Shown here piece by piece: positions 33,370-57,200 of a stretch of 64,000 nt of DNA. A program made the translations under genes and the position numbers. The notes under the pieces were generated by a model that worked only from the letters and a program-made list of their open reading frames with translations, did no database searches and was not told the origin of the DNA. The stretch covers positions 77,203 through 141,202 of the forward strand of contig JBNGIO010005803.1 of NCBI GenBank assembly GCA_049999805.1, in the 5' to 3' direction. Every line of letters begins with the position of its first letter. The first letter of the stretch is position 1. The DNA comes from Folioceros fuciformis (lineage: Eukaryota).

Positions 33370-35900
33370 AAATGCTTCTTGCTTCGGGTTGCAGATATGT
33401 CTTTCAGCCTCAGCTGACTACAGGCGTGCTAGGCTCGTCAATCGGAAGCATCCCAAGGGAAGCAAGAGTAGGCCTCGTCCCCAACCCGAAAACTGTGCCC
33501 CAATCCGTCCAAGTCTGTCCACCAACTCTGAGCCGGCACTTTCCATGCCCTGCTTGTTTTTCTCCAGTCCTGTATCTCCTGTGTCTGCTCCCACATCTGG
33601 GCAGACGTGTAGATGTTGGACATCAACACATATGGTGCAGGATCAGTCTTGTCTAGATTCACTGATTCATCGAAGGTGAGGCACCCCACATCCACATTGC
33701 TCCACTTTCGACAAGCACTCAACAGAGTGTGCCAGATTGCAGGATTGGGCAGTACAGGCATAATCCTCACTAGAACTAGTGCTTAGCTCAGGTGCCTTGC
33801 TCGGCCCAGGAGATCCACGATGCATGAGTAGTGGTCCACAGTGGGGGGCAATGACGTAGTCCCTGTGAATGGCCTCGAAGAATTCTCTCCCCTTTGTCAC
33901 CAGACTTGCATGACTACACGCTGTTAATACACTCAGGAATGTTACACTCGCTGGCCGTATAGCATGCTCTATCATTCTCTGGACCAAGTCGAAGACTGCT
34001 TCGCTGTCACTATGAGAGGTGTAGCCTGCAATCAGTGCACTCCAGGCGACAAAGTCTCTTTTGGGTAGTGCCTCAAACACCTGCTGTGCATCCACCATGC
34101 TCCCGCACTTTCCATACATGTTTATCAAACTGGACCCTAAAACCACATCAGCTTGCAACTCTTGTTCTTCGATCTCCACATATAACTGCCTTCCCAGATG
34201 CAAGGCTGCCAAATCTGCGCATACCTGCAGGAGGCACACAAACGTTACGGAATCAGGTACGGACATGCCATCCTCTTGCATAGCTCGGTAGAGGCTGAGG
34301 GCATCCTGGCCCATGCCCCTGTTGCGAATTTCCTGCGATCATGGCATTCCGCGTGCCCACGACTTTCTCACCGAGTCCGTCAAACACGCTCTGGGCATCG
34401 TCCAAGCCGCCACACTTGGCATGCATGTTCACCAACCTGTTGGCCACGAGCACCTCGTCTTGATATCCTCCTTCTCTAATATGCACATGAAGCTCCTTCC
34501 CCTGCTCCAGAGCTGGAGTGCCCATACCTGCGCAAGCCTGCAGAAGGCACACAAACGTCACAGCATTCGGCACGACCATGCCCTCTTCTAGCATGGCGTT
34601 GTACAAACGAAGAGCTTCCTGCCCCATTCCTTGCTGGGAATAGCCTGCTATCATGGCATTCCAAGTCACCACGTCTTTTCTACCAAGACAGTCAAAGACT
34701 CACCGAGCATCCTCAAAGCTGCCACACTTTGCATACATGTCCACTAAACTGTTGGCTAGAAACACATCATCTTCATATCCCTGTTGCCTAATCTGTGCAT
34801 TAAGCTGCTTCCCCATCTCCACAGCCGGGTTGCCCACACTCGCAAACGCCTGCAGGAGGCACAGAAATGTCACAGAATTGGGCACAGCGACTCCCTCTGC
34901 TTGCATAGCCCAGTACAGACCCAGGACTTCCACCCCCATGCCCTGCTGGGAATATCCTGCAATCAGAGCAGTCCACGTGACTACATTTTTCTGCTCAAGT
35001 CCATCAAACACTCTTCGAGCCTCTTCTACGCTGGCACACTTGGAATACATGTCCACCAGGCAGTTGCAAACGAACACATCAGGGTCAACGCCAGCAGCCA
35101 ACACATCAGCGTGCAGCTCCTGCCCAGCTTTCAAATCCCCACCCCTAGCACAAGCCTGAAGGGCTGCCACAAACACATGCCAATCCGGCTCCACACTTGA
35201 CCTGCGCATCCCACGATACAACTCCAGTGCCTCCTCGTTTCGTCCCTGCCCAACACGCACAGAAATGATGGAAGACCACATGAAGGCACCTGGGCGGGCA
35301 ACCATGGTGAACACATCCATCGTGTCCTGCAACCTGCCATGCCAAGCATACATCCGCACTATGTGGTTGCACAGGAAGGTGTCCAACTCGTACCCCTCTT
35401 TCACCACCAAAGCGTGGACGCGGCGACCCAGCACCAGATCCCTCCTCCCCACACATTCCTTCAGGCAGCGTACAGAAGGGGTCTGGAAACACCGCACCCT
35501 GTCTCCACCGAAACTCCCGACGCCTCAATGGCTTCAGGGAGGTGGCATTGACGACAAAGGCCACTCACGGTTTCACCTCGCACGCCCCTTCCTCCAGGCC
35601 CGCATCCGGGCAAGGAGGCAGCTGCCCCGCCCATCTCCATATTTAGCACGGCCCAGGTCCTCATCCACCCAAGCTGCCTTGCACAAGCTTTTCAACCAGA
35701 GAACCTTGCTTGAGCCTCGTCATTCCGGAGGTCGGACGCATTCCTCCTCTTCTGCTGCTGCCTCCTGTCCCACAAAAGTGTGGGCTCCTGAAGAAACTGC
35801 CGCCACAAAAGCTCCCGGCGAGGAGTCTAGGTGCAAGATCCGTCTCCGACCAGACATCCACTTCCACCGGCTTGGCTTCTGTTGCACCTGGCGCCATCTC
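33370..35900 (-). pseudogene. PLS-PPR pseudogene of the WW type (paralog of the 54-61 kb pair)
   Basis: PPR motifs split over several ORFs: in-frame TGA at 34702-34700, +1 frameshifts near 34317 and 33845, TAA near 33784, another frameshift near 35465. C-terminal KVPAQSWWTDLDGLGHSFRVGD. Confidence 0.9.
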
Positions 35901-36496: not shown

Positions 36497-37921
36497 CTAC
36501 AGATTGTACAGAGGGCGATCCGTCCAAGCACCAGCAACGTGCCCGTTTTCACACACAAAAGCCCGGACAACTGGCTCCCCGTCATCGTGGTACTCGTGTG
36601 ACCTCCTGAGGCAAAATGTGGAGACCATGTCCCACGTCCGAGGCGATGAGCAGAACGCACAGCACATTCCTGCCTTCCTTGGTTTCAAGTCTTTGAGGTT
36701 TCGCCAGATCTGCGAGGCTTTGAAATTCTTGAACACACCGCGAAAAAGCTTGTACTTCCTCCGCTTCCCGGGATGCATGCACCCAGGCCAGTCACAGATA
36801 TACAGAATGTCCGCTCGGAATCGACTTGCCAGCAGCTTGTTACCCTGCTCTCTTGTCAAGTTCCACATGCCGCACGCCAAATGAGGCTCTTCGTGAGAGC
36901 AACATGCACCATTTCTCAGCCCATCTTTACGGCGGTCATCTACCCTCTTCTTTCTCTTCACTCTGTCGATCCTTGTGTCCTGAGATGAGAATGACGAGCT
37001 TGGCCTGGCGTCTGGATCCACCTGGGGAGCCCCATCAGCACCACCGGTGTCATCTTCGCAGCCCAGAACATGGTGGGGCAAATCGTCCGGCTTGTCATCT
37101 GGAGGAAAGACATTGGCAGCATCAGTTCGAGTATGCCAGCCAGAGGGCGGTTGCACTGGAGTGCCCTTCCCCGATACTACATCAACTCCATGGCGAAGTT
37201 GGTCATCACCACCGTTTTTCCCACCCTCCTGCTGGGCATTGGGCAGCTCAGCAGTAGTTGAAGAACCCGAAGCGAGCTGCACACTTGCTTGTCTGCTGGC
37301 CCTCTCCTTAGCAATTTCGGCAGCCGCTTCCGAAATATCCTGCTCGACGCCAAAGGTAACCTTCTTGCCAGCACTCTTCTTCATTCCTTGAAACGGCTCC
37401 TCGTCCACCTCCCCAGACTTCCTCTTCCCAGTCCGAAACTCCTCGCTCGATCCCAACTCTCTCTCGAGGCCGAAGTCCCAACACTCGAGCATGACACCTG
37501 CGTGACGAAGCCCAGGACAGCACACCAGCAGCTTCTGGAGGGCACCCCAACCTCCAGGCGGCTCTGGAGCATGATGATCCGTTCGGTGAGGCCCTTGCAT
37601 GAGATCCGACACTAAGGCAGGAACCACCCGCAAGCACTGCCTTCTCCACACGGTATGCTTGATCACTCTGGCAAAACGAACACACACGCATGCAAGCCGC
37701 GCCAGGTGCCTGGGATCATCCTCCAACCTGGTAAAGATGTTCACCAGAATATCCTCCGAGATCTTGGAGAAGAAATAAGACGGAATTTGGTCTAGCAGAT
37801 CCGGCATCCTGATGTCGAACAGATTGGCATGGTCCGAAGCCCTAAGACAGTCCTGCATGGCAATGTTGAGCATAGATTCCAACGACAGAGCAGAGATCCT
37901 GATGTCACAAGGGACGGCCAT
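36497..37921 (-). CDS. EID1: Phytochrome A-associated F-box protein EID1-like, single coding exon
   Basis: EDILVNIFTRLEDDPRHLARLACVC, PPGGW..L.KL..CCPGL.HAG, DFGLERELG, REQGNKLLASRFR, LFRGVFKNFK, CAFC, HDDGEPVVRAFVCENGHVAGAWT. First in-frame ATG at 37921. Confidence 0.92.
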   Translation of the reverse strand: MAVPCDIRISALSLESMLNIAMQDCLRASDHANLFDIRMPDLLDQIPSYFFSKISEDILVNIFTRLEDDPRHLARLACVCVRFARVIKHTVWRRQCLRVVPALVSDLMQGPHRTDHHAPEPPGGWGALQKLLVCCPGLRHAGVMLECWDFGLERELGSSEEFRTGKRKSGEVDEEPFQGMKKSAGKKVTFGVEQDISEAAAEIAKERASRQASVQLASGSSTTAELPNAQQEGGKNGGDDQLRHGVDVVSGKGTPVQPPSGWHTRTDAANVFPPDDKPDDLPHHVLGCEDDTGGADGAPQVDPDARPSSSFSSQDTRIDRVKRKKRVDDRRKDGLRNGACCSHEEPHLACGMWNLTREQGNKLLASRFRADILYICDWPGCMHPGKRRKYKLFRGVFKNFKASQIWRNLKDLKPRKAGMCCAFCSSPRTWDMVSTFCLRRSHEYHDDGEPVVRAFVCENGHVAGAWTDRPLYNL

Positions 37922-40189
37922 CCAACCGGAGCCGAACCCGGCTACACAGACGGGAGATGATGAAACACCGACCTCCTTCTCCTCTCCCCCGCCTTTCCCA
38001 ACACGCCCTTTTCCCTTGCCCACCACCTCAAGGCTCAAACCGACACGCCCCACCCGAGCTGAGGTAGCTACCCAGCGTTCAGAACGCCCCCAATGAATGC
38101 TTCACCGAACCATGCCCTCGTCCTCCGGTGCTGCACCCAACACGCCAGTCTCCCATGCCCACCACCTCCAGGCTCCAACTGACACGCTCCACCACAGCTT
38201 ACACCGCTACCCAGCGCTCACGAGGCCGCAATTCTCCATCAAACCATGCCCTCCGTCTCCCGCACGCGGAACCGGAACTGGCCCCCACTTTCCTTCCACA
38301 AGCACATTGTGCCCACAACCCCCGGCTCGAAGGCCCATAGCCATGGCACCATCCCCTCGGCCGGGCGGAGCTGCGAGGCCGGGCGTCCAGTCACCAACCG
38401 CCCAGCACACAGGGGCGAAAACGAGGAACTCCTTCACCACAGGCCACTACTCCTCGGAAGTGTGCCGGCAAGCAAATCCCCCACCCCTTCTTGAATCAGG
38501 CGATCCCGGCATGCAGAGCACTCGGTCCGGCGTGTTGCGTCCACCTTGCGCGACCCTCCACGGCAGCGGCAGCGGCAGCGGCAGTCAGCAAATCGGCAGA
38601 GGGCAGAGTCCACACCCGGATTGAATGAGCGGGAGAGGGACGTAAGACGACAGACGCACATGGGGGCCGGGGCTCTGGCAGCCACCGCCCACACAAGCTA
38701 CATATCAAGGCAGCCAATGAGGAGGCGAGGCCGGACGGGAGGGCATTCCAGAATCATTTGCAGACGCTAGGAGCACATGAGATCGGTGCCGGGGATTGGA
38801 GCCGTGAAACGCACGAATCGCCCGCCTCGGACAGGTGCGGCCAGATAAGTAAATTCGCCGTGAGGGTGAGGCGGAGAATCGGGGTGGGCGGGAAGAACGT
38901 GGCCGCCCTCTCCACGGCCATGTGGCCAAGGGGGCTCCAGCTCCAAGCCTGGCGCAATTCCTCTTCAGCGTGACGTCGCCCGGGTTCTGGTCCGAGCGCC
39001 CTCCTCTGTCATGGCGTCTCGCCAATGGCAGATCTTTGGCAGCTGTGTGGCCCTCATGGAAGCTGCCCAACAGTGGCTGCCACCATTGGTCGTGTTTTGG
39101 GACGGACGCGTGCCACTGGCAGGAGACTGAGAATTGGGAAATGGGAGATACTGGATTTGCGTGAAACTTTAAAGAATCCGGCTCATGACCAGACCCTCTC
39201 CTTCTCCTGCTCCTTCTCCTATTCCTATTGGACGACACCATGCTGGATGCCTTGGCTGAGCAGTGGTGATGTCTTGTCACCCATACATGCAGGAAGTGGG
39301 GGCGGAAGCGGACGGGATGCGGTGTGCCGTGCCCATCGGACACCTGTCGCAACGGTTTCTCTCGTCTTACGATGTGACATGATCTCTGTGTTACTGTGAC
39401 GATTGCTGATAACTTGCGTGCTAGACACGTTGAGCAGAACGTCAGCCGAGCTCACCTGCATACGTGACTGCATACACGCCTCTCTTTTCTCTATCCTTCT
39501 TCTACTCACTCCATTGTCCATTTGCGGTCACAGCTTGAGCAGTACATGCTGTAAGAATTGAAGGATTCACCAGGAAGTCTTGTCTCCTACTACAGGATAG
39601 ATGTTAGGTCCTCTCTCGAGATACCCATTTGCAAATTCCACTCCACAACTCTCCACGTCTTAGAGACGCTTCCTAAAATATTCTTAAGTATTCCATCCTT
39701 TTGCAAAATTAAGAGAGCACATCCAGACATTGCTGGCAAAATATCTAGGTTCTTGAATGTGGAGCAGGTTACCCTGTTTGTAGGATATTCCATCAGTGTG
39801 ATTGAATCACCTGTTTTGGATACCACATGCATTTGTAGGGAAGAGGAAGAACCACACATCTTTCCTTTCTGTGTAGATTGAAAGGATTGCTTGTTGTCTA
39901 TGCTACATACATTGGTTGCAAAGAGGAAGAACCACACAAGCTTTCCTTCTTACATAGATTGAAAGGACTTCAAGATGTGCCAATGTTTCTGTCTTCCTAC
40001 AAGGAAAGAATTTGGGTCACAAGATGGTTCATTCGCAAAAGCTCAGTCAGTGCATTCAGTACATCGTATGTTTGAACGCAAGCAACGCGATTCTTATTGG
40101 AGAACATGGAGAGTGCCAGGCAAGGATTGTACCAAGCGAAGGGCCGTGGAGCACGAGTTCGTGGATTGAGACGATGCTGAAAAGACGGC

Positions 40190-41160: not shown

Positions 41161-42414
41161 CCCATAGAAGGAAATGAAATCCTTCTATGGAAATCCGTTC
41201 ACTCTAATAGAATTCTTCTTTTGCAGCAGCATGTCAGCAAAGTGTCCATCTCCCATTTCCATCCGTCTCGTTCGCAATACCTTCTACACCAACGCACGCA
41301 CACACTTCTATGTACATACATGGTACCTCTCTGTCTCATGTATTCCTACATTCAGGCCCTTGAACGGCTGCTGCTTCACCAGATCCAGTCTCCAATTGAT
41401 TGCCTAAACAATTCCCTACTCCGCAGGTGGTGCGAGACCATTTCCGACGGGACGCCACCCGATCTGGAAGGTGAAAGCAGAGACTAATCGGTCACACAAA
41501 GTGAAGCAAAGAGACTGAGGACACGCGTTGAGAGCAAAGCTCGAAGTCGAGACAGAGCCAGGCTAGGGCAGGAGAGGTTGAAGCAGAAGCGAGCGCGTTG
41601 CAGACCTCGCCAGCTCTGGGGAAGGGAAATGCTTTCTGGAGCAGGAACGAGTTACGAGGCTCGGATCTGTCCACTTGAATAGCGCCTTGCCGCTTTCCAT
41701 AGCCTTCCTTCCCTTGATGCAAGATTGGGATTGTGGATGCCAGACAGAGGGCGACATCGACGACTGCAGAGTGTGTACTTAAAGAGTCCTATGCTGCCCA
41801 AAACAAGTTGGGAAACTACGAGTTGGCAACCCTGGTTTGTGAGGTTGGCAACCTGTTACGTCGTGAGAGTCAGAGGACAGGAGAGAGGTGGGCCTGAACG
41901 CCGACACCCAGGTTACACGAGAGCGTGAGGCGGTGTTTGTGCATTGGCATCGGGGCTGCTGCTGCATCCGAATATGCGGCAGGTCAGAGTTTTGGGAAGC
42001 GCGTCGATGGGAGTGTTGCACTCGCTCGAGGGCGTACACTCATCTCGTGTGCCTGTCAGGAGAGGGATCAGAGTCCAGCAAGGACGCCTTGGTTGAGAGG
42101 AGACACATGATTGCGGAGGCGAGAGGCACCATCTTACATGCACGCTCCCATCGTATGTGTACGTTGTGTCGATTCGGCCAACAAGTACACTTGGCTCCAC
42201 AGAAGTGAAACAGACCCATGAGGACTACACGGGCGACCTACAGGAAAATTTGCTGGCCACAGTAGCCCTGTTCCAAACAACCTTAGCAAAGTCACACATC
42301 TGTTGCACACACCCTGCTCCCACGCTGCCGGGCGAGATTCCGCTCAGGGCAGGAAACTTGCACCTCCTTCAGCTGGGCAACAAACCACTGGGGCACCCTT
42401 CACTGCTGTCTACG

Positions 42415-43260
42415 GCATCGCCTTCCACGCTCAACGTCACCCTAGCTTTTCCAAGCTCTCAGAAAATCATTCCAGTCCACACGGGCATTCACAGGTGGAG
42501 ATGGATTGCAAGCAGAGGAAACCCCTCCCAACAACCCCCAAACTCCCACATTTTTCACACGTTTTCCAAAGAGGTACCGGCTACCACATTCTCTTCCGGG
42601 CCTCTTCCACGAATCTGTGATTGAAGCTGCATATCCTACAACAGGGATCGCTGTCGTGATGGCCTCCTTCTGCATACTTGCATCCAGAGCCAACGCTTCT
42701 TCCCCTCTCCCCCAACGAATGCATCCTGCGATCCCATGGCACACAGCTCCTTCCAGCGAAATTGGCATACACGTTCACCAAATCAGTAGTAACAAATTCT
42801 TTATCCCTAACAGCACTCGCTCGAATACCAGCATTCAGCATCCAAGTCTCCTTCCTGCCAAGGCACACGCCTGGCCTCTGGGAAGGTGCGACTGGATGGC
42901 ATGCAAACCTGCTACTCGCATCGGAGCATACAGGCTGATAGCCACCCATGGCGAGCATAAGCCCAACCCCTGGAGGACTACATGCATACATTTGGCATGA
43001 GCATTCTGGCCACCACCTGCACTGCCTCCTCCCACTTGCCATGCGAGGCACACATACCCTTGATGTGGTAAGCCGAAAAAGCGTCTCATTCGTACTCATT
43101 CCCGATAGCCAGGAGTATGCCCCCTGCCTAGCACACACTAGTCTGCCCCCCGCCTAGCACTCCTTCTCTGCAATACACTTCTTCCCCGCAGCATACAAAG
43201 GAGAATTGGTAAAATAACCACCAGGATGCACCATGCGCTGCAAAGCTTCAACAGATCTTC
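42415..43260 (-). pseudogene. Heavily decayed, internally deleted PLS-PPR relic, closest in this window to the KP-type gene
   Basis: Fragments VEALQRMV..LYAAGKKCIAEKE, MCASHGKWEEAVQV, AISLYAPMR, TDLVNVYA, GRGEEALALDASMQKE and GDVERGRRC. There is an exact 20-nt match of 42434-42415(-) to 8078-8097(+). Confidence 0.75.
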
Positions 43261-44415
43261 CATATTCTCTGTAACCGTGGACCCCTAAACCGAGAATCAC
43301 ACCAGAGAATACCACCAGTCAGCACTGGCTACATCGGCATCGCCATGCTGGTCGTCATAATTCAACAGAGCTTCCACATTCTTCGAACCTTGAACCCCTA
43401 ATACGAGAGTCCCACCAAAAAGCACCGACTACATCGGCATCGCCATCACGCTCGTCATACTTTCAACAAAGGTTCCAAATTCTCCGCAACCAGAACCCCT
43501 AATGAGAAAATCCCACCAAACAGCACTGGCTCCATCGGGATCGCCATGCTGCTCATCATATCGATATGCCATCTGCGCTAGCTCAGACGACGTAACGCCG
43601 AGTCAGTGTTTCATCTCTACCATCGCAGATAGCGCATCAATCCCAAGAACAGCATACCGATGCCGATCCCACCAAACAGCAACAGCTCTACCGGCATCGC
43701 CATGCTGCTTGTCATATCGATACCCCATCTGCGCTAGTTCAGACGAAACAACGGCTGGTCTGTGTTTCTCTCTACTATCGCAGATGGTGCATCAATCCCA
43801 CGAACAGCATACCGATGCAGATCCGAGCAAACATCGTCATCACCCTGCTGCTCAGCACCGGCTCCATCGGCATCTCCCTGCTGCTCGGCATCGGCTCCAT
43901 CGGCATCGCCATGCTGATCGTCACATCGATACCCCATCTGCGCTAGTTCAGACGAACCAACGGCTACTCTTGTGCTTCGCATCCACTATCGCAGATGGTG
44001 CATCAATTCCCAGAACAGCATATCGAAGCCGATCCCACCAAACAGCCCCGGCTACACATCGCCGTGCAACTCGTCATACTTCACCAGAGCTTCCACCTTC
44101 TTTCTCCCTAACCCTGAAACCCACAGTCTTCGTAACCCTGAACCCCGCATCTGAGAATTCCACGAGAGAATCCAACCAAACAGCACCAGCTCCATCGACA
44201 CCGCCATGTTGCCCCTCACATCGATACCCCATCTGCGCTAGTTCAGACGAAACAACGCCTGGTCTGTATTTCGTTTCTACTATCGCAGATGGTGCATCAA
44301 TCCCACGGACAGCACACCGATGCCGATGGAGTCGGTGCATGCAACAAACGAACAAAAAGTGGATGCTCCAAGGAAAACAGAAGGAAAACAGAGCGATGCC
44401 GATGGAGCCGCTGTA
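43260..44415 (-). ncRNA. Tandem array with four ~150-nt fold-back units (43523-43668, 43678-43822, 43887-44036, 44183-44338) plus orphan arms; candidate pre-miRNA/hairpin-RNA cluster
   Basis: On -, TTGATGCACCATCTGCGATAGT pairs with ACTAGCGCAGATGGGGTATCGA (22 bp, 2 mismatches, 2 G-U). Both arms are identical in units 2-4 while the loops differ, and a long lower stem is present. The repeat is certain; the RNA function is inferred. Confidence 0.45.
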
Positions 44416-44582
44416 ACAAAAAACGTAGAAGCCCTAAGAAAGGTACAGCTGTCCAGTCGAACATCCGAGCTCCAATGCAGCGAGGAGTAGGTAATCAATT
44501 CTATTTTCTACATTGTGGGAAAACACTGACCAATCTTTGCGAAATTGGGAGAAAACTGTTCGCCAATCGCCGATTGTGATTT

Positions 44583-44620
44583 TAGGGTTTCGGCAGGCCG
44601 CCCTGTTTTGTGCTATATAA
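44583..44620 (+). promoter_or_regulatory. Telo-box + TATA promoter of the snoRNA cluster
   Basis: TAGGGTTT 44583-44590 and TATATAA 44614-44620. Further telo-box-like motifs at ~44728, 45527, 45540 and 45615. Confidence 0.55.
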
Positions 44621-45066
44621 CCGCAGAATAGTGGCAGTGCTAAACCAGCGTGTCCGATGGCCAGTGCCAGCTGCTCGTTGTTTAGGGCCGCCGGCGCCCT
44701 CGCCTTCGTCCGCGAGCTTGGTTGTTTAGGGTTAGCACGAGATGGTCTGTGTGGCGTCTTGCTGTCTTCCCCGCCGAACTGGGATACCTTCTCAGATGTG
44801 TCGTTGCCATCTTCTGGCGTCGTCCCTGGACACGGTGGGCTGCCTGGAATCATGGAACTGGGCGTGCCGAAGAGCAAGGTTCGACTTATCTCACTTGCTT
44901 TCTTGTGAGCTATTCGAGGTGCCATTACCTCATTCCGTCTCTCCCGGACTGTGTATGCAGATCACTCGGTCGCGGAAGGGTAAACGCAACGGGCCCAAGT
45001 TTCTGAAGCCGTACCCAGTGATCTCCAGATGTGTGTAAGTGGTCTTCCTCGTATATGGTGACCCAC

Positions 45067-45161
45067 GGCTGTGTCATAGTCTTCCTGGGTGGCTTCTCAG
45101 GCAGCCCACAGCTGAAGATAATCTGCTAGTGAGGCGTTCTGCCACCCGGACAAAGACATCC
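45067..45161 (+). ncRNA. Possible H/ACA-like snoRNA or fragment
   Basis: Hairpin GGCTGTG/CACAGCT with an internal pocket and upper stem CCTGGG/CTCAGG. AGATAA (H box) at 45116 lies ~14 nt from the pocket; ACA at 45156 or 45190. The second hairpin is weak and no target was identified. Confidence 0.25.
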
Positions 45162-45282
45162 TTGCTTTTCTGATTCATTGAGGGTGTGAACATTCTCTGA
45201 TGTGAGTCAAGTAATCCTGGATGACATGAGCTGGTGTTTGGTCTTCAGTCGTCTGTTCGGTCCTGTCCAATTTCTCTCATCT

Positions 45283-45368
45283 AGATGGATGTGATGACAC
45301 TTTCCCCAAATGATCGAATATGATTCGACTTTGCAATACTCCAAGCCAGGAACTTGTCTGATCCGTTT
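45283..45368 (+). ncRNA. Box C/D snoRNA copy 1 (SNORD12/snR190-like)
   Basis: C box GTGATGA 45291-45297, guide CTTTCCCC, D' ATGA 45310-45313, D CTGA 45358-45361, terminal stem AGATGGA/TCCGTTT. Confidence 0.85.
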
Positions 45369-45412
45369 GTTTGTCACCACCCAAGGTTTTCATCTTTCTA
45401 CGGTTGCAGTCT

Positions 45413-45492
45413 CGGACATGATGATCCTTTCCCCGAATGATCGAATATGATTCGACTTTGCGCTTATCCAAGCCAGGAACTCTGTTGATCCG
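45413..45492 (+). ncRNA. Box C/D snoRNA copy 2
   Basis: C box ATGATGA 45418-45424, guide CTTTCCCCG, D' ATGA, variant D TTGA 45485-45488, stem CGGA/TCCG. Confidence 0.75.
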
Positions 45493-45622
45493 TCAATTCT
45501 CAGTGTCAAAGCATGTGTTTCATCGTTAGGGTTTAGGTCTAGGGTTTTTAAGATAATCGTTATTCGCCGAGTGATCGAAAAGAGAAGGATTTTTGGTTCA
45601 TTACGTCATTACCCTAGGGTTT

Positions 45623-45702
45623 CGGACATGATGACACTTTCCCCGAATGATCGAATGTGATTCGATTGTGCTGTATTCCAAGCCAGGAACTCGTCTGATC
45701 TG
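45623..45702 (+). ncRNA. Box C/D snoRNA copy 3
   Basis: C box ATGATGA 45628-45634, guide CTTTCCCCG, D CTGA 45695-45698, stem CGGA/TCTG. Confidence 0.85.
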
Positions 45703-45784
45703 TAATCAGTGTTGCACTGGGCATGTGGGTGGGATAAGTGCTGTTTTCAGGCGTGTGTGTTGATTTGTTTCTCCATTCTTGACC

Positions 45785-45863
45785 TGGACAAGATGATACT
45801 TTCCCCAAATGATCGAATATGATTCGATTCGTAACACTCCAAGCCAGGAACTTATCTGATCCA
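45785..45863 (+). ncRNA. Box C/D snoRNA copy 4
   Basis: Variant C box AAGATGA 45790-45796, guide CTTTCCCC, D CTGA 45856-45859, stem TGGA/TCCA. Confidence 0.75.
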
Positions 45864-45959
45864 CTTCTTGCTTTTTGTAGTGTCGTGTAGCCTGAAAAAT
45901 GTCTTCAGTTTTCCTTTCAAAAAATGTGTTACTTTTCCTCTTGGTTTTCGTTCGATTTC

Positions 45960-47510
45960 CGTCTGTCTTGCACTGCCCCTCACACGGTCCACGGTTGTGG
46001 TACTTCTCACAGTGTATGTGGGCGCGTGAAGTTACCGCATCTATTTTGCTGCGTTGGTACTCCGAAGAAGGAACCTTCTTGAATGGAACAGTGCCCAAGG
46101 CGGAGTGCCTTTCTTTTCTGACCAGAGTAGGCCCGATATGGTGCATTTCGGGAGCTCGACGCGCTTTCAGCGCGCTCTGGCGAACCGGGAGGTGAAAAGC
46201 GATGTATACGAAAACCTCCCTGGCATCGCCCCATGGCCGAGCGGTCGGCTCCAGTGATCTATGTTGCTAGGAGATCTCAGGGCGAAGGATTCTTCGTGGA
46301 ACTGGTCGTTCACTGTTCCCTGGTACCTCCAGTGCCGCTTCAGCCCATGCTTTTAATGGTCCTTGTACCCTCCTGTGACGGTGCTGTCCCAGCGGATGTG
46401 GCCGGGGGTCCCTCGTAGGCTTTTGTGATGGTGCTGCCCCAGCTCGTGAGGGCTGTGGTCCCTCGTAGGGTTCAGTGATGGTGCTGCTCCATCGTATGCA
46501 TTTAGGGATCCTCGCCAGTGGTGGTGCCGCTCCACCTTGTGCTTCATTTCACAGTTTGCCGACTCAGAGCTAAGCTACGAGCTTGGTGTCCCCTTTCCTT
46601 GGCATTCCAGAGTTAAGAATTCTAGGCCTTCGGTCAAGAATGATGTTCTACGACTTCAGTGTGAAATTTTTTCCGAAACATCGCTACCAGCGTGCTACAG
46701 TCCTCGAATTCTTCCCAAGCTCGAATTGCTTTCTAGGTTGTATCAATTAATGATTCGTCCCTCGAACTGAAGACGAGTTGCCTAAGTAATACGCGCCTGG
46801 TCATCGTTGAGGCGTCCTATGGTCCTTGAGCTTAGGAAGTACTCTTCGTTAAAGACTAAAATACATCATTGTTCTGCTGGCAGCTCCACGTACCTCTCAC
46901 GCACGCAAGTAGGCTTGCCCTGCCGCGAGCAAGAAATATCTCGGTCTCTTGTTTCGAGGCTCTGAGCGATTTGAAGAGGCAGTCACTCCGATGCACTTCC
47001 ATTTTGTCCTCTGCAGAATTTGTCACCTGGCGGGCAAGCATTGGTGAAGCTAGCTACAGCTGAACTTGACGCGCTGAATCATTTCCGGACAGCGCCATCA
47101 TCACAGCATGCAGATAATGTGGTGATACACATACCTAGTCTGCCCCGATAACCAGTGGATCTTTCCTGCATGCAGCCGTAAAAGTCGATCTCGCCCCACG
47201 GCAAGTCCTGTCATGACACCTCTCTTCGCGCGAGCGGCCCGATGTGAGCAGCAAGCCTGCCACGTACCGGTAGAGGAATCTCACAAGATGATGCACCCCT
47301 CGCAAGGTTCGACAGGCACTGCCCCTTGGTTCGCACGTCCAAGTGTAAGCCCATACTTCCCTCCCACCGCTGGGTGCGCCAGCTTCCACCTCTTAGACAT
47401 TGGATCCTCACACTCACCAGCTCGAGGAAAATATACCCAGTATCAGAACGACGTCCAGCTTCGTCTTCATTCAGAACATGGTCCTCCTATACCTCAACAG
47501 TCAACAGTTT
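45960..47510 (-). mobile_element. Possible LTR-retrotransposon relic (PBS-like site and decayed gag)
   Basis: TGGTTATCGGGGC near 47154-47142 resembles a tRNA-iMet PBS. Broken pieces EEYF..LNDDQAR, WEEF..LVAMFRKKF and knuckle-like HCEKYHNRGPC follow. No pol or second LTR seen. Confidence 0.35.
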
Positions 47511-47609
47511 GTTACGCACTGCCCTAATTTGCTTGCTTAGGGGCTAAATTGAAACATGAAAATGAACCTAATTCTATCGCTAATGCATGAGGGAGTGTGG
47601 TTTTTTCTG

Positions 47610-47795
47610 TATAGGAGGGTTTGGGGTTTAGGGTTTAAATTCTAAACCCTATAGGGAGCGTCCATATATACTTTGTGCAATCAGGTTTACTTAGAAAACC
47701 TTAGAAAACCGTTTAGGGTTTAAATCCTAAACCCTACACCCTATAGGAAGCGTTTGTATATACTTTGTGCAATGAGGTTCACTTAGAAACCTTAG
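47610..47795. repeat. Duplicated ~90-bp unit with palindromic telomere-like core
   Basis: TAGGGTTTAAAT(T/C)CTAAACCCTA ... tatatactttgtgcaat..ggtt.acttagaaa occurs twice. Confidence 0.75.
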
Positions 47796-48466: not shown

Positions 48467-48566
48467 NNNNNNNNNNNNNNNNNNNNNNNNNNNNNNNNNN
48501 NNNNNNNNNNNNNNNNNNNNNNNNNNNNNNNNNNNNNNNNNNNNNNNNNNNNNNNNNNNNNNNNNN
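48467..48566. other. Assembly gap (100 N)
   Basis: Run of exactly 100 N, so the true size is unknown. Confidence 1.
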
Positions 48567-48779: not shown

Positions 48780-50050
48780 TGTTGGAAAGAATTCCACCTC
48801 CAACTTGCCAAAGCTAGACTTTCAACAACCAAGAGCAACACCTGCAACCCTCTAGAGCTACGGTAGAAGTAGCTACATCGTCAACTGGCTAGAGCTATAG
48901 TGAAAGTAGCTACATGTTCAACCAAATCGAGCTACACTAGAAGGAGTTACATGTTCAACTTGCGGAAGCTATACTAGAAGGAGCTACATGTTCAACCTAC
49001 CAAGGCTACACTTGAACTAGCTACACCTTCAACCAGTTGGGGCTACACTAAAAGTAGCTACATCGTCAACAATATGAGCTACACTGAGAGCAACTACATG
49101 GTCAACCAATTTGAGCTACACTAAAAGTAGCTACATCGTCAACTGAGCTACACTAGGAGCAGCTACATCGTCAACCGATTTGAGCTACACTGAATGTAGC
49201 TACATCGTCAACTGAGCTACACTTAAGAATAGCTACATGGTCAACCCATTTGAGCTACATTGAAAGTAGCTACATTGTCAACTGATTCAAGCTACACTGA
49301 AAGTAGCTACATTTCAACCAACTAGAGCTACACTAGAAGGAGCTACACCTCAACCAACTGGAGCTACACTAGAAGTAGCTACATCTTCAACCAGCTAGAG
49401 GTACACCGAAAGTAGCTATGCCTTCAACCAACTAGAGCTACACTAGAAGGAGGTACACCTTCAACTAGCTACACCTACATTGGAAAGAGGTACATCTTCA
49501 TCTGGCTGGAGCTACACCAGAAGTAGCTACATCGTCAACCAGCTAGAGGTACATGGAAAGTAGCTATGCCTTCAACCAACTAGAGCTACACTAGAAGGAG
49601 GTACACCTTCAACTAGCTACACCTACATTGGAAAGAGGTACATCTTCATCTGGCTGGAGCTAGACCAGAAGTAGCTAAACCTTCAACCAGCTATAGCTAC
49701 ACTAGAAGGAGCTACACCTTCAACTGTCTAGAGCTACACCGTCAACTACCTTAAGTAACATTGGCAAGGAGCTACACCTCCAATTGTCTACCTTGAGTAG
49801 CACTTGTCTACCTTGAGTAGCACTAGGAACGAGCTACACCTTCAACTGTCTAGAACTACACTAGAAGGAACTACGCCTTCAATTGGTTCGAGCAACAAAG
49901 AAAAAGCTACACCTTCAACCAACTAGGGCTATGGTGCAAGGAGCTACACCCTCAGTCAACTAGAGCTATGTTGCAAGGAGCTACACCTAAAGAAACAACA
50001 CCGTCAACCAGTTGGAAGGAGCAACAATTGATCTTCAGATGGACCTTCAA
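48780..50050. repeat. ~35-bp satellite (gagctacactagaaggagctacaccttcaaccaacta), about 30 degenerate copies
   Basis: AGCTAC recurs twice per unit throughout, and there is a ~152-bp higher-order duplication at ~49370-49690. Confidence 0.92.
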
Positions 50051-50081
50051 CCATCCAAACGAGTTAGAGTTACACCTGAAC

Positions 50082-50935
50082 AAGCTCCACCACCTTTGGA
50101 AGGAGTTACAAGCTCCACCACCTTTGGAAGGAGTTACACCCAAACCAGCTCCACCACCTTTGGAAGGAGTTACACCCAAACCAGCTCCACCACCTTTGGA
50201 AGGAGTTACACTTGTTACATCTAGAACTGTAGGAAAGAGTTACTCCTATTACATAGAAGGAGTTACATCTGTTACATCTAGAATTGTAGAAAAGAATTAC
50301 ACATGTTACATTCATATCTAGAACTGTAGAAAAGAGTTACACTTGATACATCCTCCAGTGTTGAGAGGAGTTACGCCTGCTATAGCTCCAACGAAAAGGA
50401 GTTACACCAATTACATCTATTACACTTTCAATAAAAACGAGTGGAGTAGCCCCAATTACACTTCCAATCATCGGATGGAGTTACACTTACACTGTAAGGC
50501 TTTCATCAGAGTGACACTCACGATGTTACAGTGACACTCACAATGTTACACTTTCAACGACACCAATTACTCTAATACTTTCAATGACACCAATTACTCT
50601 ATTACTTTCAACGATACCAGTTACTCTAATACTTTCACCCACACCACTTACTCTAATACTTCTAATGACAATAGTTATATTAACACTACTATACTTTCAT
50701 CTACAACTACACTTTGTACCTATGAGAATAACAACCAACATAAGCTATGCTAAAAGAAAGAGCTACAGTGGAAGGGATTACACCTTAAACTTGTAGCACT
50801 TTCATTCACCTTAAACTTGTGGCACCTTCAATACCTTAAACTTGTAGCACTTTCATTCACCTTAACCTTGTGGCACCTTCAATACCTTAAACTTGTAGCA
50901 CTTTCATTCACCTTAAACTTGTGGCACCTTCATTC
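50082..50935. repeat. Further minisatellites adjoining the satellite
   Basis: agctccaccacctttggaaggagttaca x4 (50082-50210), ttactctaatactttca-type units (50560-50700), and accttaaacttgt(a/g)gcac dimer units x6 (50781-50935). Confidence 0.9.
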
Positions 50936-53900
50936 AGGAAGGAACTCCAACGGATAGGATGTAGAGAAGGAGCATGGATAGGGGTGTAGAGAAAGAGCTA
51001 CAATGGAAGGGGCTAAGCCCAAAAGGAACCATGCTATAACCTTCCTGCACTTTCAACCAGTTGGAGGTGCAACAGGATGAGCTACATTTGAAAGGACTGC
51101 ACATAACCAGGACCCATCATAAACAAAAATGGTGGATGTATGTAATTTATTGAGATTAAGCACTTGCATCTTAATAAATTGCAGAACTGTCCGCTAAGCG
51201 GCAAGTCCATCTTTGTGGACAACCTGTCTGCAAAGTTACTTAAAGTATCCAGAGCTTACTCGATGTTTCCGTCATATGCTTATGTAGGACCTGGAAATTG
51301 GGCAGACGGGAACCGGGTACTACCTATAAAAATGCGTGAATCCTGCGCACGATATTGCCCAACAACTTCTCTACCAACCAATCCAAACTTTGGGCAGGCG
51401 CAGTTTCTTGGAGTCTTCCGAATGTCGTGGACAGCGTAGAAAAAGGTGGCAGAACTTCCTCACGAAGAGCCGATCTGGAAACAGGTCAGGTAACCCTCAG
51501 AAACACACCTGGATGGCAGAGAAGGCGGAAAACAGCAGCAACACTGGAGGGATGGCTGATTCAGGGGTCACCTTTCATGCGCCTTCGGAAAGTTCTAAGA
51601 ACTAGGGTGTCCCTTTGCATTCTCATTACGATCGAACAAATCGCAGGTCGCAGAACACGTGAGCTGGGTTCCAAGCCTGCTCAAGAACACGCCATAGAGC
51701 CACGAGAGTACGTCGGTCAGAGAACTGCAGGATGATACATAGATGAGACAACAACGAAGAGAAGTCAAGAGTTACACAATGTAACAACATAAAGATAGAG
51801 AGGTGCCGCATCTCTCGCAATACACCTCACAGCTGAATTGCAGCCTCCACAACCAACGTGTTTAGAACACTGTGACAGACATTAGACACTTGAAATCGCG
51901 GATGAGCCCCCGGATTCCACGACCAATTATGGGGAGGAGGGTGAGAGCCAAGTGTGGTGACGGACACGCGATCCGGCGCTGGCACAAGTATGCAGTGCAG
52001 ATTAAAAGCTCTGTTATTGATGCTGATCTCTCCAAATATGATATGGATATTCGGTGCCTCACACCGAAGAGATCAGCACCAGCACCAGAGCTTTTTATCT
52101 AAAAGAAGACGAGAGGCTTAGTGCTCAACAGCGCAAGTCTCCAAACCAACCAGAGGCCAGCAGACTTCCTTGTCAGGAACTCCAAGCGCGGTGCGCATGG
52201 AAGTCAGCCACTGGTGCAATGGAAGAATAGGAAACCTCACAAGCATTTGCCTGATACAAAGCGTAGGGTGAGCCGCAAACATGGGTCGCAAGCTGCAACA
52301 AAGGAAGCCGGAAGAGCAAGAAGAGTGGCGTTCTTCCAGGGAAAGTGGGATATCTACTAAGGCAGGCAGGCGAGGAGAGAGGAGAGGGATGTTGCGGTGG
52401 ACAGAAGGAATATAAGAGCAATTTGACACATGTATCGATCAGCGGACTCTCTGGAGTGCTCTCTAAAGCAACCCACCGGTGCAATTATGTCAACTACAGA
52501 GAGGAGCTTAAAAAGGCGTACTGCGGGCCTGTGGAATTGCAGATCGAGTCAGGAAGATCACAGAGCAATAAGGCATAAAGAAAAGAATGTAGTACATGCA
52601 TACATTTGTACACACTAGGCCTACTGGGCTGGCCTGTTCAAATCTTTTGAAGCAGAATTGGAATGACGTTTGGCATTCATTGCAAGGGTCTTGGCAAGCA
52701 CGCAGCTATAACAGACTCTGCGAAAGCAGATCAGACACATTGCGACAACCAACCCGTGACTGTGCGATGACCCGGGCCTTTGAAACTTCCCTTCAAACCA
52801 TGCGTGAACGGAAGGCCTAGGAAGACGAGGCGGATACCTGAAAGCTGAGGAGTCGAGTCGGTCCTCGACCCGACCCGACCCGACCCGACCCGAGCCGTAC
52901 CATGTACGTTCCATCAACTGTATCAGATCTGGACAGAATGCATCCCGCTGTACCGGTAGCAAAAAAAATGAAGCTGCGAAATCGAGACGGAACAGGCTTG
53001 GAAGCAGGTAGTCTAGAATAAAACCTGTGTGAAGATGGCAGCTCACCTTACAGAACACGGATGTCATCGATGACTCATGCCCTGTCCTGTCCTGTCCTCC
53101 GCTGTCCTGTCCTGTCCGACTCCCCCGCTGCCTGCACAAATCGAGCTGGTCACTGCTGCAGTTTGACTGTCAAAGCGCTTGTCATCGATCGCAGTTCACC
53201 GCTCTCTCGCAATTATGCAAAGCTTGCCTACCTAGGTCCTAGACTGGTACCTCAGGCGTTACAACCACAATGATCGCATTGGCAGCCGTCCCGGTCTCGG
53301 CTCCTACCGCCTGATCTGACAAGCTCTGGATCTGGCACAAGAAATGAATTAATCACGGTTAGGACTGCGGATTGGCCGGTGCTCAGCTGCAGCCGGAGAT
53401 TGCTGACAAACCCGGGCCCTCCCCCTCCGACCGCATTGATCGCTGCAGCTGCAGCTGCTGCTGCCCTGCCGCTGTTGCTGTAGCCAATCCGAGTGCTTCC
53501 CGCACGCGCCAGCCGGTGCTTCCGCACCACGCAATTCCGGAGCCATCGTCTCCGGGCAGCGGCCCAGGCGGCCGGATCCCGGCCGAGTCTCGTCTCGTCG
53601 CGTCTCGTCTCGGTACGCCCGGCCAGCCTCGTGACGGTACTCCGTCCGCCCACTCGACCTGTCGCAGTTGTACCACCCGGTCCAAGGCGACGAATATGAG
53701 CAGGCCCGCGCGTCACAGGTTGGGCAACGCGCCGGGCATTCCGTGCACATACTATAATGGCGGGTCGCGGTCGCGCATTCACGCTCCCAATGTGCGCCTC
53801 GCCTCGCCCCGCCCCGTCTCCCGTTCCGTTCTGCTGACCGTCGCTCGCCTGAAGCCTTTGTCACAGAGCAGCAGGAGATCCTGCGAGTGCAGATCCGCAA

Positions 53901-54276: not shown

Positions 54277-57200
54277 CTAGTGAGAACGACGGCAGTGAGA
54301 ATGGGGGGTTTGTATCATGGTTGTTTTGGAGAGGAGGTATTTCAGCCTTGAATATATTCTTTCACTGGAAGGATGGTTTCTATCCCTGACCAGAAACGTG
54401 TGCACCAGGCCATGTGTATCCGTCCACCAGCTTTGGCCCGGCTGCTTCCTTGCTCCAACTTGGATTCTCCGTGCCTGCAATGCCTGTGCCTGCTCCAGCA
54501 TCTGGGCACTTGTGTAAATGTTGGACATCGAAACATATGCTGCAGCATCTTTGTCGTCCATCTTCACTGCTTCATAGAAAGCATGGCGTCCCACGTCCAC
54601 GTTGCTCCACTTTTGAGAGGCACCCAACAGGGTGTGCCACACTGCAGCGTGAGGTAGGGTAGGAATTGTCCTGGCCACCGTCAGTGCCTCCTCCAGATGG
54701 CCTGCACGACCCAGGAGGTCCACCATGCAGGTGTAGTGCTCTGCAGTGGGAGTGATGCCATGGCATCTGCTCATGGCTTGGAAGTACTCTTTCCCTTTGC
54801 TAACCAGGCCAGCATGACTGCACGCTGTTAGCAGACTGAGGAATGTGATGCTGTCTGGATGTACACCATCCTCGGTCATTTTCATGACCAAGTCAAACAC
54901 CTCTTTGCTGTTGCCTTGCCGGGCGTATCCTGTGATGAGGGAATTCCAGGCAACGATGTCTCGTTCGGGCAAAGCATCAAAAACCAGCTGCGCATCCATC
55001 ATGCTCCCGGACTTTGCGTACATGTTGATCAAGCTCATGGCTATGAGCCGATCACCTTCGAGCCCTTTTGCTTCCATCTCAGCATGAAGCTGTCTTCCCG
55101 ACTGCACAGCTGCGAGATGTGCATATGCCTGGAGTAGGCACGCAAATGTCACGGAGTCTGGTGCAGCCACACCTTCTTCATGCATAGCCCTGTACACGCG
55201 AAGGGCTTCTTCGCCCATGCCCTGCTGAGAATAGCCTCCCATCAAAGCGGTCCATGTCACCACATTCTTTGAAACAAGACCGTTGAACACGCCCTGTGCA
55301 CTCTCTAGACTGCCGCACTTGGCATACATGTTCACCAGGCTGCAAGCTACATACGCATTGTCCTGGAGCCCATGTTCTGTGATGCGGGCATGCAAATGCT
55401 TCCCTTTCTCGAGAGCCTCTGCACCCACACATGCACATGCCTGCAAGAGGCACACAAATGTCACAGAGTCCGGTGCAGCAATACCTTCTTCCTGCATGGC
55501 AGTGTAAAGTTGGAGGGCCTCTACACCCTTCCCCTGTTTGGCATAACCTGTTATCACGGCATTCCATGTCAACACATTCTTGTGGGCAAGTCCATCAAAG
55601 ACTAGCTGCGCATCTTCTAAGCTGCCACACTTTGCATACATGTTCACCAGGCTGCAACCTACAACGACGTCCTGCCCGAGACCATGTTCTCCAATCTGTA
55701 AATGGAGCTCCTTCCCTTTCTCCAAAGCCGGGGTACCCATACTGGCACAGGCATGCAGGAGGCACGCAAATGTAGCAGAATCCGCACATACAACGCCTTC
55801 TTCCTCCATAGCACTGTGGAGCTGAAGGGCTTCCTCGCCCATGCCCTGTTGACAGTACCCAGCCATCATGGCATTCCATACTACCACATCTTTTTCAGGA
55901 ATCCCCTCAAACACACGCTTGGCCTCCTCAAGGCTGCCACACTTCGCGTACATGTCTACCAGGCTGCAACCTACAACTATATCAGTCTGGAGCCCTTGCT
56001 CCACAATCTGGGCATGAACATGCCTTCCCTGTTCCAAAGCCTGGGTGCCCATAATTGCACACGCGTGCAGGAGGGACACAAATGTCACACGATTGGGCGT
56101 AACAATGCCTTCCTGTCGCATGGCGCTGTAAAGTTGAAGAGTTTCCTGACCTTTGCCGTGCTGGGCATATCCTGCTAGCATGGCATTCCACGTTACCACA
56201 TTCCTTTCACCGACTTCGTCAAACACACGCTGGGCATCTTCTAAGCTGCCGCACTTTGCGTACATATTCACCAGGCTGCTGCCTAGAAACATATCAGGCC
56301 AGAGCCCATGTTCCCGAATCCTAGCATGGAGCTGCATCCCTGTCTCTAACGCCTGGGAACCCATAGTTGCACACGCCTGTAGCAAGGACAGAAAAGTAAC
56401 AGGATCAGGCTCAACCATGCTTTCTTCTTGCATAGCAGTGTAGAGCTGAAGGGCTTTCTGACCCATTCCCTGCTGAGAATATCCTGCTATCAGGGCATTC
56501 CATGTCACCACATCTTTTTGAGGAAGCGCATCAAACACCCTATGTGCGTCTCCCAAACTGCCACACTTGGCATACATATCTACCAAGCAATTGGATACAA
56601 ACATCGCAGGCTTGTCCCCACTCACCAACAACAAGTCAGCATGCACCTGCTGCCCAGTTTCTAAGTCTGCTTCTCTTGCACAAGCCTGTAGGGCTGCCAC
56701 AAAAACATGGCCGTCTGCCTTCACACTCGCCCTATCCATCTCATGATACAATCGAATGGCCTGCTTAGTTTGCCCATGTCTAACATGTGCAGATATCATG
56801 GAGGACCACATGAAGGCATTTGGTTTTCCCACCCTGAAGAACACATCCATCGCTTCTTCCAACCTGCCATGAGCAGCGTACATTCGCAGGATATGGTTGC
56901 ACAAGAACGGGTCCGACTCGTACCCCCTCTCCACTGTGAGAGCATGGACACGGCGACCTAGAACCAGATCCTTCTTAACCGCACACTTTCTGACAACAGT
57001 GTAGAAGAGAGTCTGGGAAATGCCGCAGTCTCTCTGCACCAGAACTCCCAAAGCCTCAACAGCCTCAGACAACTGCTCCTGCGCACACAATCGGGTAACA
57101 GTTTCGGCATCCATGTGCCGTTCGTATCCTGTACACCTGCAGTGGTCAGGGCCACGCCATGGGGATGTGTGGGAACGAGGTCCCTTCTTCATATCCACAA

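What the first reader, a model, noticed from the sequence alone, without database searches (positions are those of the whole stretch)
43500..44415. Array of four pre-miRNA-like fold-backs with invariant 22-nt arms and variable loops
Seen: each ~150-nt unit folds on the - strand into an upper 22-bp duplex (UUGAUGCACCAUCUGCGAUAGU / ACUAGCGCAGAUGGGGUAUCGA). A lower stem is complete (~21 bp) in unit 4 and shorter in the others. Both upper arms are identical in units 2-4 (43717-43738/43774-43795, 43926-43947/43985-44006, 44221-44242/44279-44300) while the loops have diverged. Several deviations from perfect complementarity are G-U on - but A-C on +, including two unit-4-specific changes, which favours a - strand RNA structure. 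Known: conserved arms, a free loop and a 5' U are hallmarks of plant miRNA precursors. Inference: a lineage-specific polycistronic miRNA or hairpin-RNA locus; I do not recognise the arm as a known miRNA family.
Basis: partly seen in the sequence, partly recalled or inferred. Interest (0 to 1): 0.75.

Follow-up and report, generated by a model that had tools for sequence, protein, structure and literature searches.

The report
Hornwort four-hairpin microRNA cluster candidate
A transcribed stretch of a likely hornwort genome holds four tandem predicted RNA hairpins with conserved paired arms next to a broken PPR (RNA-editing factor) gene; it likely makes a lineage-specific microRNA that might act on PPR messages, but no small-RNA data were available to test this.

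Summary
Observation largely confirmed. Four ~150-nt units fold on the - strand into separate hairpins (z -5 to -10). Both duplex arms are identical in units 2-4 (0 of 44 columns vary, against 30 of 95 in loops and lower stems). Unit 1 differs at 3+3 bases and keeps the duplex. The predicted 21-nt duplex meets the structural criteria for plant miRNAs. The G-U strand argument is weak once repeats and composition are allowed for (p=0.23).

New: the window is likely hornwort. The array shares a ~101-nt repeat with, and runs into, a decayed PLS-PPR gene on the same strand. RNA contigs tile both (strand not shown). The locus lies just upstream of a spliced snoRNA host gene.

The 5p arm's complement reads as a PPR-helix-like peptide (P~0.001-0.002, post hoc), but no neighbouring PPR is a target. 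Best reading: a young polycistronic MIRNA born by duplication of a PPR gene's 5' end (0.62). Small RNAs, targets and genome copy number are untested.

The parts
44183..44338 (-). Hairpin unit 4 (5'-most on - strand); candidate 5p 21-mer 44300-44280, candidate star 44239-44219; longest lower stem
   Evidence: MFE -90.2, z -10.1; duplex with 2 mismatches, 2 G-U, terminal region 40 nt
43890..44040 (-). Hairpin unit 3; candidate 5p 44006-43986, star 43944-43924
   Evidence: MFE -68.9, z -5.1; terminal region 41 nt
43681..43828 (-). Hairpin unit 2; candidate 5p 43795-43775, star 43735-43715
   Evidence: MFE -75.5, z -7.5; terminal region 39 nt
43525..43672 (-). Hairpin unit 1, variant arms (3 changes per arm; an A.G mismatch becomes G-C, a C-G becomes C.A, two pairs become G-U); candidate 5p 43640-43620
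   Evidence: MFE -71.1, z -6.1
43247..43560 (-). Tandem ~101-nt repeat R (about three copies). Its first half is the 3' lower arm of every hairpin; its last copy runs directly into the PPR N-terminal motif. A further, expanded copy lies at about 44060-44220.
   Evidence: TRF period 101, 2.6 copies, 43304-43560; families D2, D5, D8; alignment; model hits 43304-43359 and 43405-43459
43832..43916 (.). 33-nt tandem repeat derived from the start of R, between units 2 and 3
   Evidence: TRF
44380..44413 (.). Extra inverted fragment of the R start, upstream of unit 4 on the - strand
   Evidence: inverted repeats I10, I12, I14; weak model hit E 0.19
42430..43309 (-). Decayed PLS-class PPR gene (stops and frameshifts; ~0.9 kb against 3.1-3.4 kb ORFs for intact neighbours), from the pre-PPR N-terminal motif to an E-domain-like remnant
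   Evidence: tblastn with window PPRs, best E 4.6e-8, hits in three frames; alignment of the N-terminal motif
42127..44300 (.). Transcribed interval: overlapping RNA contigs 42127-43745, 43718-43950, 43927-44245 and 44216-44249, with depth to about 44301; strand not shown by contigs
   Evidence: run X1; no cover at 44302-44749
44760..46653 (+). Neighbouring spliced snoRNA host transcript: one GT..AG intron at about 44879-44960, and a second (45035-46013) holding one snoR77-like and four snoZ103-like snoRNAs. Divergent from the array if the array is read on the - strand.
   Evidence: Rfam; joint and loose end in X1; splice ends read

Best explanation
The array is likely a young, lineage-specific polycistronic MIRNA gene of a likely hornwort, whose transcript is inferred to run on the - strand and is predicted to fold into four hairpins from which DCL1 would cut one dominant ~21-nt 5'-U RNA (UUGAUGCACCAUCUGCGAUAG from units 2-4, a variant from unit 1). 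Shown: the four fold-back sequences, arm-restricted conservation, RNA contigs over the array and the PPR remnant, and the shared repeat R. Inferred origin: the 5' part of a PLS-PPR gene was tandemly duplicated (repeat R); one junction was copied in inverted orientation to make the first hairpin; the hairpin was then amplified to four copies while the rest of the PPR gene decayed. Inferred processing: short loop-to-base cutting, since the terminal region is structured and 39-41 nt. Inferred loading into an AGO1-type protein via the 5' U (recalled rule). Most likely targets, weakly supported (about 0.35 if it is a miRNA): a subset of the large hornwort PPR family, at a helix-coding 'L-x-Q-M-x-x-Q' stretch.
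For: Folding and context folding. 0 of 44 against 30 of 95 variable columns, with mismatches and wobbles also conserved, which palindrome homogenisation would not give. Unit 1's six arm changes leave 2 mismatches. Duplex meets the <=5 mismatch, no-large-loop and <300-nt criteria of Axtell and Meyers (10.1101/213314, passages). Terminal region near the ~42 nt of short loop-to-base precursors in Arabidopsis (PMC3787264, passages). RNA contigs, 7 of 8 at 99% identity or more, tile the locus in X1, a run with spliced joints and 3 of 30 empty bins. PPR remnant on the same strand, joined by repeat R. The complement of the 5p 21-mer reads in frame as LSQMVHQ, the best PPR-helix-like heptapeptide in unit 4 on either strand (8.4 bits; 4 of 5000 shuffled arms and 9 of 5000 non-PPR window 22-mers score as high), while the star arm has drifted (2.4 bits). 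A 10-nt exact match joins the 5p arm to the remnant's first motif (P=0.03). Hornwort: KP-type PPR-DYW genes, high gene density, and a relative at 55% identity over 89% of the N-terminal region searched (P0121) that ends in the GRP variant described for hornworts (PMC9478123 passages).
Against: No small-RNA, degradome or dcl1 data could be reached (one search listed three contig-only runs). Strand of transcription is not shown. G-U bias is not significant against composition and covariation is at control level. No target in the window: no arm-derived 21-mer scored <=4; best score on the four neighbouring PPR genes is 8.0, with no enrichment over shuffles (P=0.18). 0 of 151 PPR proteins contain QMVH and 1 of 151 has MVHQ. 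The peptide test was designed after the resemblance was noticed, and another frame of the same 20-mer matches an rpoB motif in 2 of 7 chance metagenome hits, showing how easily such readings arise. Unit 1's variant scores -3.8 on the same test. blastn found no significant match of the hairpins to intact PPR genes in the window. No second species holds the locus (X2 and X3 have no cover there).
Confidence: 0.62

Rival explanations
1. Inert by-product: tandem and inverted duplications in a decaying, still transcribed PPR pseudogene. The arms are alike through recent duplication or patchy gene conversion, and no defined small RNA is made.
For: The region is repeat-prone (101-, 33- and 24-nt repeats; a length variant at 44109-44146 in X1). 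No covariation above control, no target, no conservation in another species shown.
Against: The two invariant runs lie exactly on the two facing arms, separated by a loop that varies at 11 of 37 columns, and include the mismatches; P=3 of 200,000 for run lengths alone. Unit 1's changes preserve the duplex.
Confidence: 0.2
2. Hairpin-RNA (proto-MIRNA) locus cut imprecisely by several DCLs into mixed 21-24-nt siRNAs, as many young inverted duplications are.
For: Most gene-derived inverted duplications in Arabidopsis give complex siRNA populations (PMC1790633, passages). Units can cross-pair (inverted repeats I1, I3, I4), and unit 4 has room for a second duplex in its lower stem.
Against: Fold-backs are short and imperfect, local pairing dominates (P(other partner) <=0.07), and conservation is confined to one ~22-nt register.
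Confidence: 0.13
3. MITE or other transposon-derived fold-back present in many dispersed copies.
For: Unit size and long inverted arms are MITE-like; no genome was held to count copies.
Against: No other copy in the 64-kb window. Only 8 records of X1 lay on 43150-45050 at 80% identity, 7 of them at 99% or more. Units are head-to-tail and share sequence with the PPR-linked repeat R.
Confidence: 0.03
4. The + strand 340-codon open frame 43394-44416 encodes a repeat protein, and arm conservation is protein constraint.
For: A stop-free frame spans the whole array.
Against: No Pfam family; none of 2598 candidates scored E<=0.1; identical arms are read in different frames in different units and are invariant at synonymous sites.
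Confidence: 0.02

Closest known systems
Arabidopsis MIR161 (and MIR163): young MIRNA genes from inverted duplication of target-family sequence; miR161 and miR400 target PPR mRNAs (PMC1790633, passages)
   Same: Non-conserved fold-back tied to PPR gene sequence; proposed action on the family of origin.
   Different: MIR161 is a single locus with a sequenced miRNA and validated PPR targets. Here there are four tandem hairpins in one transcribed interval with the decayed donor gene attached, a PLS/DYW-type donor in a likely hornwort, and no sequenced product or target.
Marchantia MpPPR_66 / Mpo-miR11692.1 (PMC4788410, abstract, passages and section 21)
   Same: Bryophyte PPR transcript carrying a miRNA stem-loop.
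   Different: There an intact PPR-SMR mRNA holds one long stem-loop and regulates itself. Here the PPR part is a pseudogene, there are four short hairpins, and the remnant is a poor target (above the score-4 limit).
Polycistronic MIRNA genes of bryophytes (25% of Physcomitrium miRNAs; Mpo-MIR390/MIR11676) (PMC9291395, passages)
   Same: Several precursors in one transcript.
   Different: Sequence unrelated to any Rfam family; homologous copies traceable to a neighbouring gene.
Short loop-to-base precursors, MIR156/MIR160 type (PMC3787264, passages)
   Same: Structured terminal region of about 42 nt (39-41 nt here).
   Different: Rule derived in Arabidopsis; processing direction here is inferred only, and part of the upper stem is sequence-conserved.

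Membership tests
Plant MIRNA (Axtell and Meyers 2018 criteria) | Fold-back under 300 nt without secondary stems or internal loops over 5 nt inside the duplex | tested here: met
   Predicted hairpins of 148-156 nt with an uninterrupted duplex; criteria read
Plant MIRNA (Axtell and Meyers 2018 criteria) | At most 5 mismatches, at most 3 asymmetrically bulged, in miRNA/miRNA* | tested here: met
   2 mismatches, 2-3 G-U, no bulge in all four candidate duplexes; the register is assumed
Plant MIRNA (Axtell and Meyers 2018 criteria) | miRNA and miRNA* seen in small-RNA-seq with 2-nt 3' overhangs and 20-24 nt length | not testable with these tools
   Only contig-type runs were listed
Plant MIRNA (Axtell and Meyers 2018 criteria) | Processing precision of 75% or more, replicated in at least two libraries | not testable with these tools
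   No small-RNA reads available
Plant MIRNA (Axtell and Meyers 2018 criteria) | Single-stranded primary transcript on the hairpin strand | tested here: inconclusive
   RNA contigs tile 42127 to about 44300 in one run; contigs give no strand and do not prove one molecule
Known miRNA family (Rfam 15; lists in papers searched) | Sequence or covariance match to a described family | tested here: not met
   No match at gathering score; only chance-level hits at E<=10; 0 papers; 0 hits in the supplements searched. miRBase and PmiREN not available.
Young MIRNA from inverted duplication of a target gene (MIR161 type) | Fold-back arm similar to a protein-coding gene outside the miRNA itself | tested here: inconclusive
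   The lower arm equals the start of repeat R, which runs into a PPR remnant, but no significant DNA match to an intact PPR gene among the four in the window
Young MIRNA from inverted duplication of a target gene (MIR161 type) | miRNA complementary to members of the donor family (score <=4) | tested here: inconclusive
   Not met for the 4 window PPR genes (best 8.0); peptide-level resemblance P~0.001-0.002, post hoc; the rest of the family could not be screened
MITE | Many dispersed copies | tested here: inconclusive
   None elsewhere in the window or among X1 contigs at 80%; no genome held
MITE | Terminal inverted repeats flanked by target-site duplications | not tested
   No empty-site or copy comparison was possible

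The most novel reading that the evidence does not exclude
A hornwort PPR editing-factor gene has turned into a silencer of its own family: its 5' end became a four-copy miRNA cassette whose guide pairs with a repeated helix-coding motif of PLS-PPR mRNAs, with the pseudogene tail in the same transcript as a possible source of secondary siRNAs. This would be independent evolution of miR161-like control over the 1,000-plus PPR genes behind hornwort organellar RNA editing.
Probability: 0.22. Interest if true: 0.65.

Novelty: new member of a known kind. Interest (0 to 1): 0.42.

Why it matters
Hornwort miRNAs are barely described (one species profiled, PMC9291395 passage), and PPR genes make up about 7.9% of Anthoceros angustus genes (PMC7027989 passage). 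A PPR-derived miRNA cluster with its donor gene still attached is a clear snapshot of MIRNA birth and amplification. It gives an exact, testable guide sequence for asking whether small RNAs restrain the huge RNA-editing factor family in hornworts, as they do for PPR clades in flowering plants. The kind of locus is known; the lineage, four-copy layout and attached donor are what is new.

Tried and rejected
Whole-genome copy count and target search: no genome held. Run search: three contig-only runs, no RNA holder on record, no small-RNA library. X1 was judged RNA from spliced joints and empty intergenic bins. X2 and X3 gave no cover over the array, which is no proof of absence, and the lack of cover at 44302-44749 in X1 is not used as evidence. 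Target scan with all 21-mers of units 1 and 4, both strands, against the window with the array masked: one hit at score 4.0, from the + strand lower stem, none from the arms. Metagenome scan for the arm 20-mer: 7 of 7 hits are isolated 20-23-nt matches without partner arm or flanks, two of them in rpoB-like frames (recognised from recall), taken as chance. The 340-codon + strand ORF was rejected. H/ACA or C/D snoRNA identity for the hairpins was rejected: no Rfam match, and the stems are too long and closed. G-U bias and covariation as strand proof were not significant. The sigma-70 promoter scan is irrelevant for a plant. Fold strength alone is not distinctive: among 2544 150-nt windows the best MFEI is in the array (-1.05), but repeats elsewhere reach -0.91 to -0.97. 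Earlier scan findings: nothing on this genome or sequence; one unrelated arthropod case. Literature for the arm sequences: 0 papers. For hornwort PPR-targeting miRNA or phasiRNA: none found in the listings.

Full report
Setting. No whole genome is held. The window is gene-dense, 40-60% GC, and encodes a DUF3223 protein, exons with TOR-type domains, an EID1-like F-box gene and several PLS-class PPR genes. The PPR at 5218-8622 has a KP-type DYW domain. Its best relative in an N-terminal search, P0121 (55% identity over 89% of the 136 residues searched), ends in GRP. PMC9478123 (passages) restricts DYW:KP to hornworts, lycophytes and ferns and describes GRP as a hornwort variant. Hornwort genomes are gene-dense and PPR-rich (PMC8075897 and PMC7027989, passages). 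The organism is therefore likely a hornwort; this is inferred, not named by any tool.

Observation. The arm sequences and coordinates for units 2-4 are exact. All four units fold well on the - strand (MFE -69 to -90 kcal/mol, z -5.1 to -10.1) and less well on the + strand in 3 of 4 units by z; for the whole array -383.9 against -266.0. In a 1081-nt fold each unit closes on itself in MFE and centroid. In units 2-4, 0 of 44 arm columns vary against 30 of 95 columns in loop and lower stems. The two longest invariant runs are 32 and 23 columns and face each other; shuffling the variable columns gives such runs in 3 of 200,000 trials, and two runs of at least 21 in 365 of 200,000. The invariance includes mismatched and wobble positions. 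Unit 1 differs at three bases in each arm but keeps two mismatches, one A.G mismatch having become G-C. A 21-nt 5p RNA starting with U and a star with 2-nt 3' overhangs would have 2 mismatches, 2-3 G-U pairs, no bulge and a 39-41-nt structured terminal region. This meets the structural criteria of Axtell and Meyers (10.1101/213314, passages) and resembles short loop-to-base precursors (PMC3787264, passages).

The G-U bias is 34:5 raw but 12:3 when each position is counted once, which is not significant against the strand's composition (p=0.23). Only 1 of 52 pairs has a two-sided change, and 240 of 500 shuffles reach the observed covariation. The loop is not free.

Surroundings. Immediately downstream on the - strand lies a decayed PPR gene, about 43309 to 42430, with hits in three frames to the window's intact PPRs (best E 4.6e-8). 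A ~101-nt repeat R (43247-43560, about three copies, and an expanded copy between units 3 and 4) links it to the array. The first half of R is the 3' lower arm of each hairpin, and the last copy of R ends in the codons that begin the PPR N-terminal motif. The simplest history is tandem duplication of the gene's 5' part, an inverted copy of one junction, and amplification of the hairpin; this is inferred. On the other side, a + strand spliced transcript begins by 44760 and carries one snoR77-like and four snoZ103-like snoRNAs in its second intron. A TATATA at 44614 and TTAGGGT motifs at 44582 and 44726 lie at or just before its start (reading them as TATA and telo boxes is recalled).

Transcription. 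One run, X1, holds 73% of the array's words. It behaves as RNA: a GT..AG joint, a second splice seen as a loose end, 3 of 30 bins empty and a contig matching the EID1-like gene. Overlapping contigs cover 42127-43745 (no differences), 43718-43950, 43927-44245 and 44216-44249, with depth to about 44301. Array and PPR remnant are thus transcribed, and one contig spans the remnant and unit 1. Contigs show neither strand nor a single molecule. Only 8 records lay on 43150-45050 at 80% identity, so no transcribed paralogue was seen. This is one study, and it may be the window's own source species.

Target. The complement of the candidate 5p 21-mer reads in frame as LSQMVHQ. Against a matrix from 528 helix segments of 151 PPR proteins it scores 8.4 bits (natural median 14.5, tenth percentile -0.7). 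It is the best heptapeptide in unit 4 on either strand; 4 of 5000 shuffled arms and 9 of 5000 non-PPR window 22-mers score as high; the star arm scores 2.4. A 10-nt exact match joins the 5p arm to the remnant's first motif (P=0.03). Against this: the test is post hoc; the unit-1 variant scores -3.8; 0 of 151 proteins contain QMVH and 1 has MVHQ; the four PPR genes of the window give a best Allen-type score of 8.0 with no enrichment over shuffles (P=0.18); no arm 21-mer has a site scoring 4 or less in the window; and another frame of the same bases matches an rpoB-like motif in chance hits. PPR targeting is therefore a lead (about 0.35 if a miRNA is made), not a result.

Rivals. An inert duplication in a transcribed pseudogene (0.2) is hard to square with conservation falling exactly on two facing arms. 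An imprecisely diced hairpin RNA (0.13) cannot be excluded without reads. A MITE (0.03) has no support in the window or in X1. The 340-codon + strand frame (0.02) has no family or homologue, and reads identical arms in different frames.

Comparison. It works, by inference, like Arabidopsis MIR161, a young MIRNA from inverted duplication of PPR sequence (PMC1790633, passages). It recalls Marchantia miR11692.1 in the MpPPR_66 transcript (PMC4788410, abstract, passages and section 21). Polycistronic MIRNA genes are common in moss (PMC9291395, passages). It is not a member of a described family as far as tested: no Rfam match; no paper with the arm sequences; no hit in the supplements searched of PMC5569507 (4 files), PMC4788410 (2 of 3 files) and PMC7027989 (2 files, one cut). 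The 180 novel A. angustus miRNAs are in a Dryad deposit and an oversize PDF that I could not see, so prior listing is possible. PMC5569507 (passages) did not sequence hornwort small RNAs. Searches for hornwort PPR-targeting miRNAs or phasiRNAs (listings only) found none. Membership in the MIRNA class itself stays open, because its defining read evidence was not testable.

Verdict. A real, well-formed, transcribed four-hairpin array; most likely a new lineage-specific polycistronic MIRNA of a known kind (0.62), with a visible origin in a PPR gene and an unproven PPR target. Interest 0.42.

Noticed in passing
window 44760-46653 (+): Spliced non-coding host with an intronic cluster of one snoR77-like H/ACA and four snoZ103-like C/D snoRNAs (45099-45864); telo-box-like motifs also lie inside the intron at 45526-45622.
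   Followed up: partly
window 33500-35640 (-): A second broken PLS-PPR gene, in several frames (ORFs 34700-35524 and 33667-34338), partly covered by identical RNA contigs in X1.
   Followed up: no
window 54277-57426 (-) and 57883-61119 (+): Head-to-head pair of PLS-PPR genes with a 312-nt repeat period; both end soon after a PGQS(W/R)WTD box, so the DYW domain looks truncated (the WW-type label is recalled).
   Followed up: no
window 5218-8622 (+): PPR-DYW gene of KP type whose C-terminus ends in SLQY rather than DYW, DRH or GRP; a candidate U-to-C editing factor.
   Followed up: partly
window 36497-38101 (-): EID1-like F-box gene with long insertions; matches an RNA contig at 36110-39100.
   Followed up: partly
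window about 16900-28140 (-): Exons with FAT, FRB and PI3/PI4-kinase matches, consistent with a TOR kinase gene.
   Followed up: no
window 44109-44146: An X1 contig carries an extra copy (about 48 nt) of the short 24-nt repeat between units 3 and 4: an allele or a collapsed assembly.
   Followed up: no
window 48834-51000 and 48467-48566: 37-nt satellite-like array (about 25 copies) and other short tandem arrays beside a 100-N assembly gap.
   Followed up: no
window 47601-47750 and 51951-52150: Other strong fold-backs (MFEI -0.84 to -0.97) outside the array.
   Followed up: no
L001 and L006, 2001-2020: The arm 20-mer occurs by chance in rpoB-like reading frames (identified from recall).
   Followed up: yes
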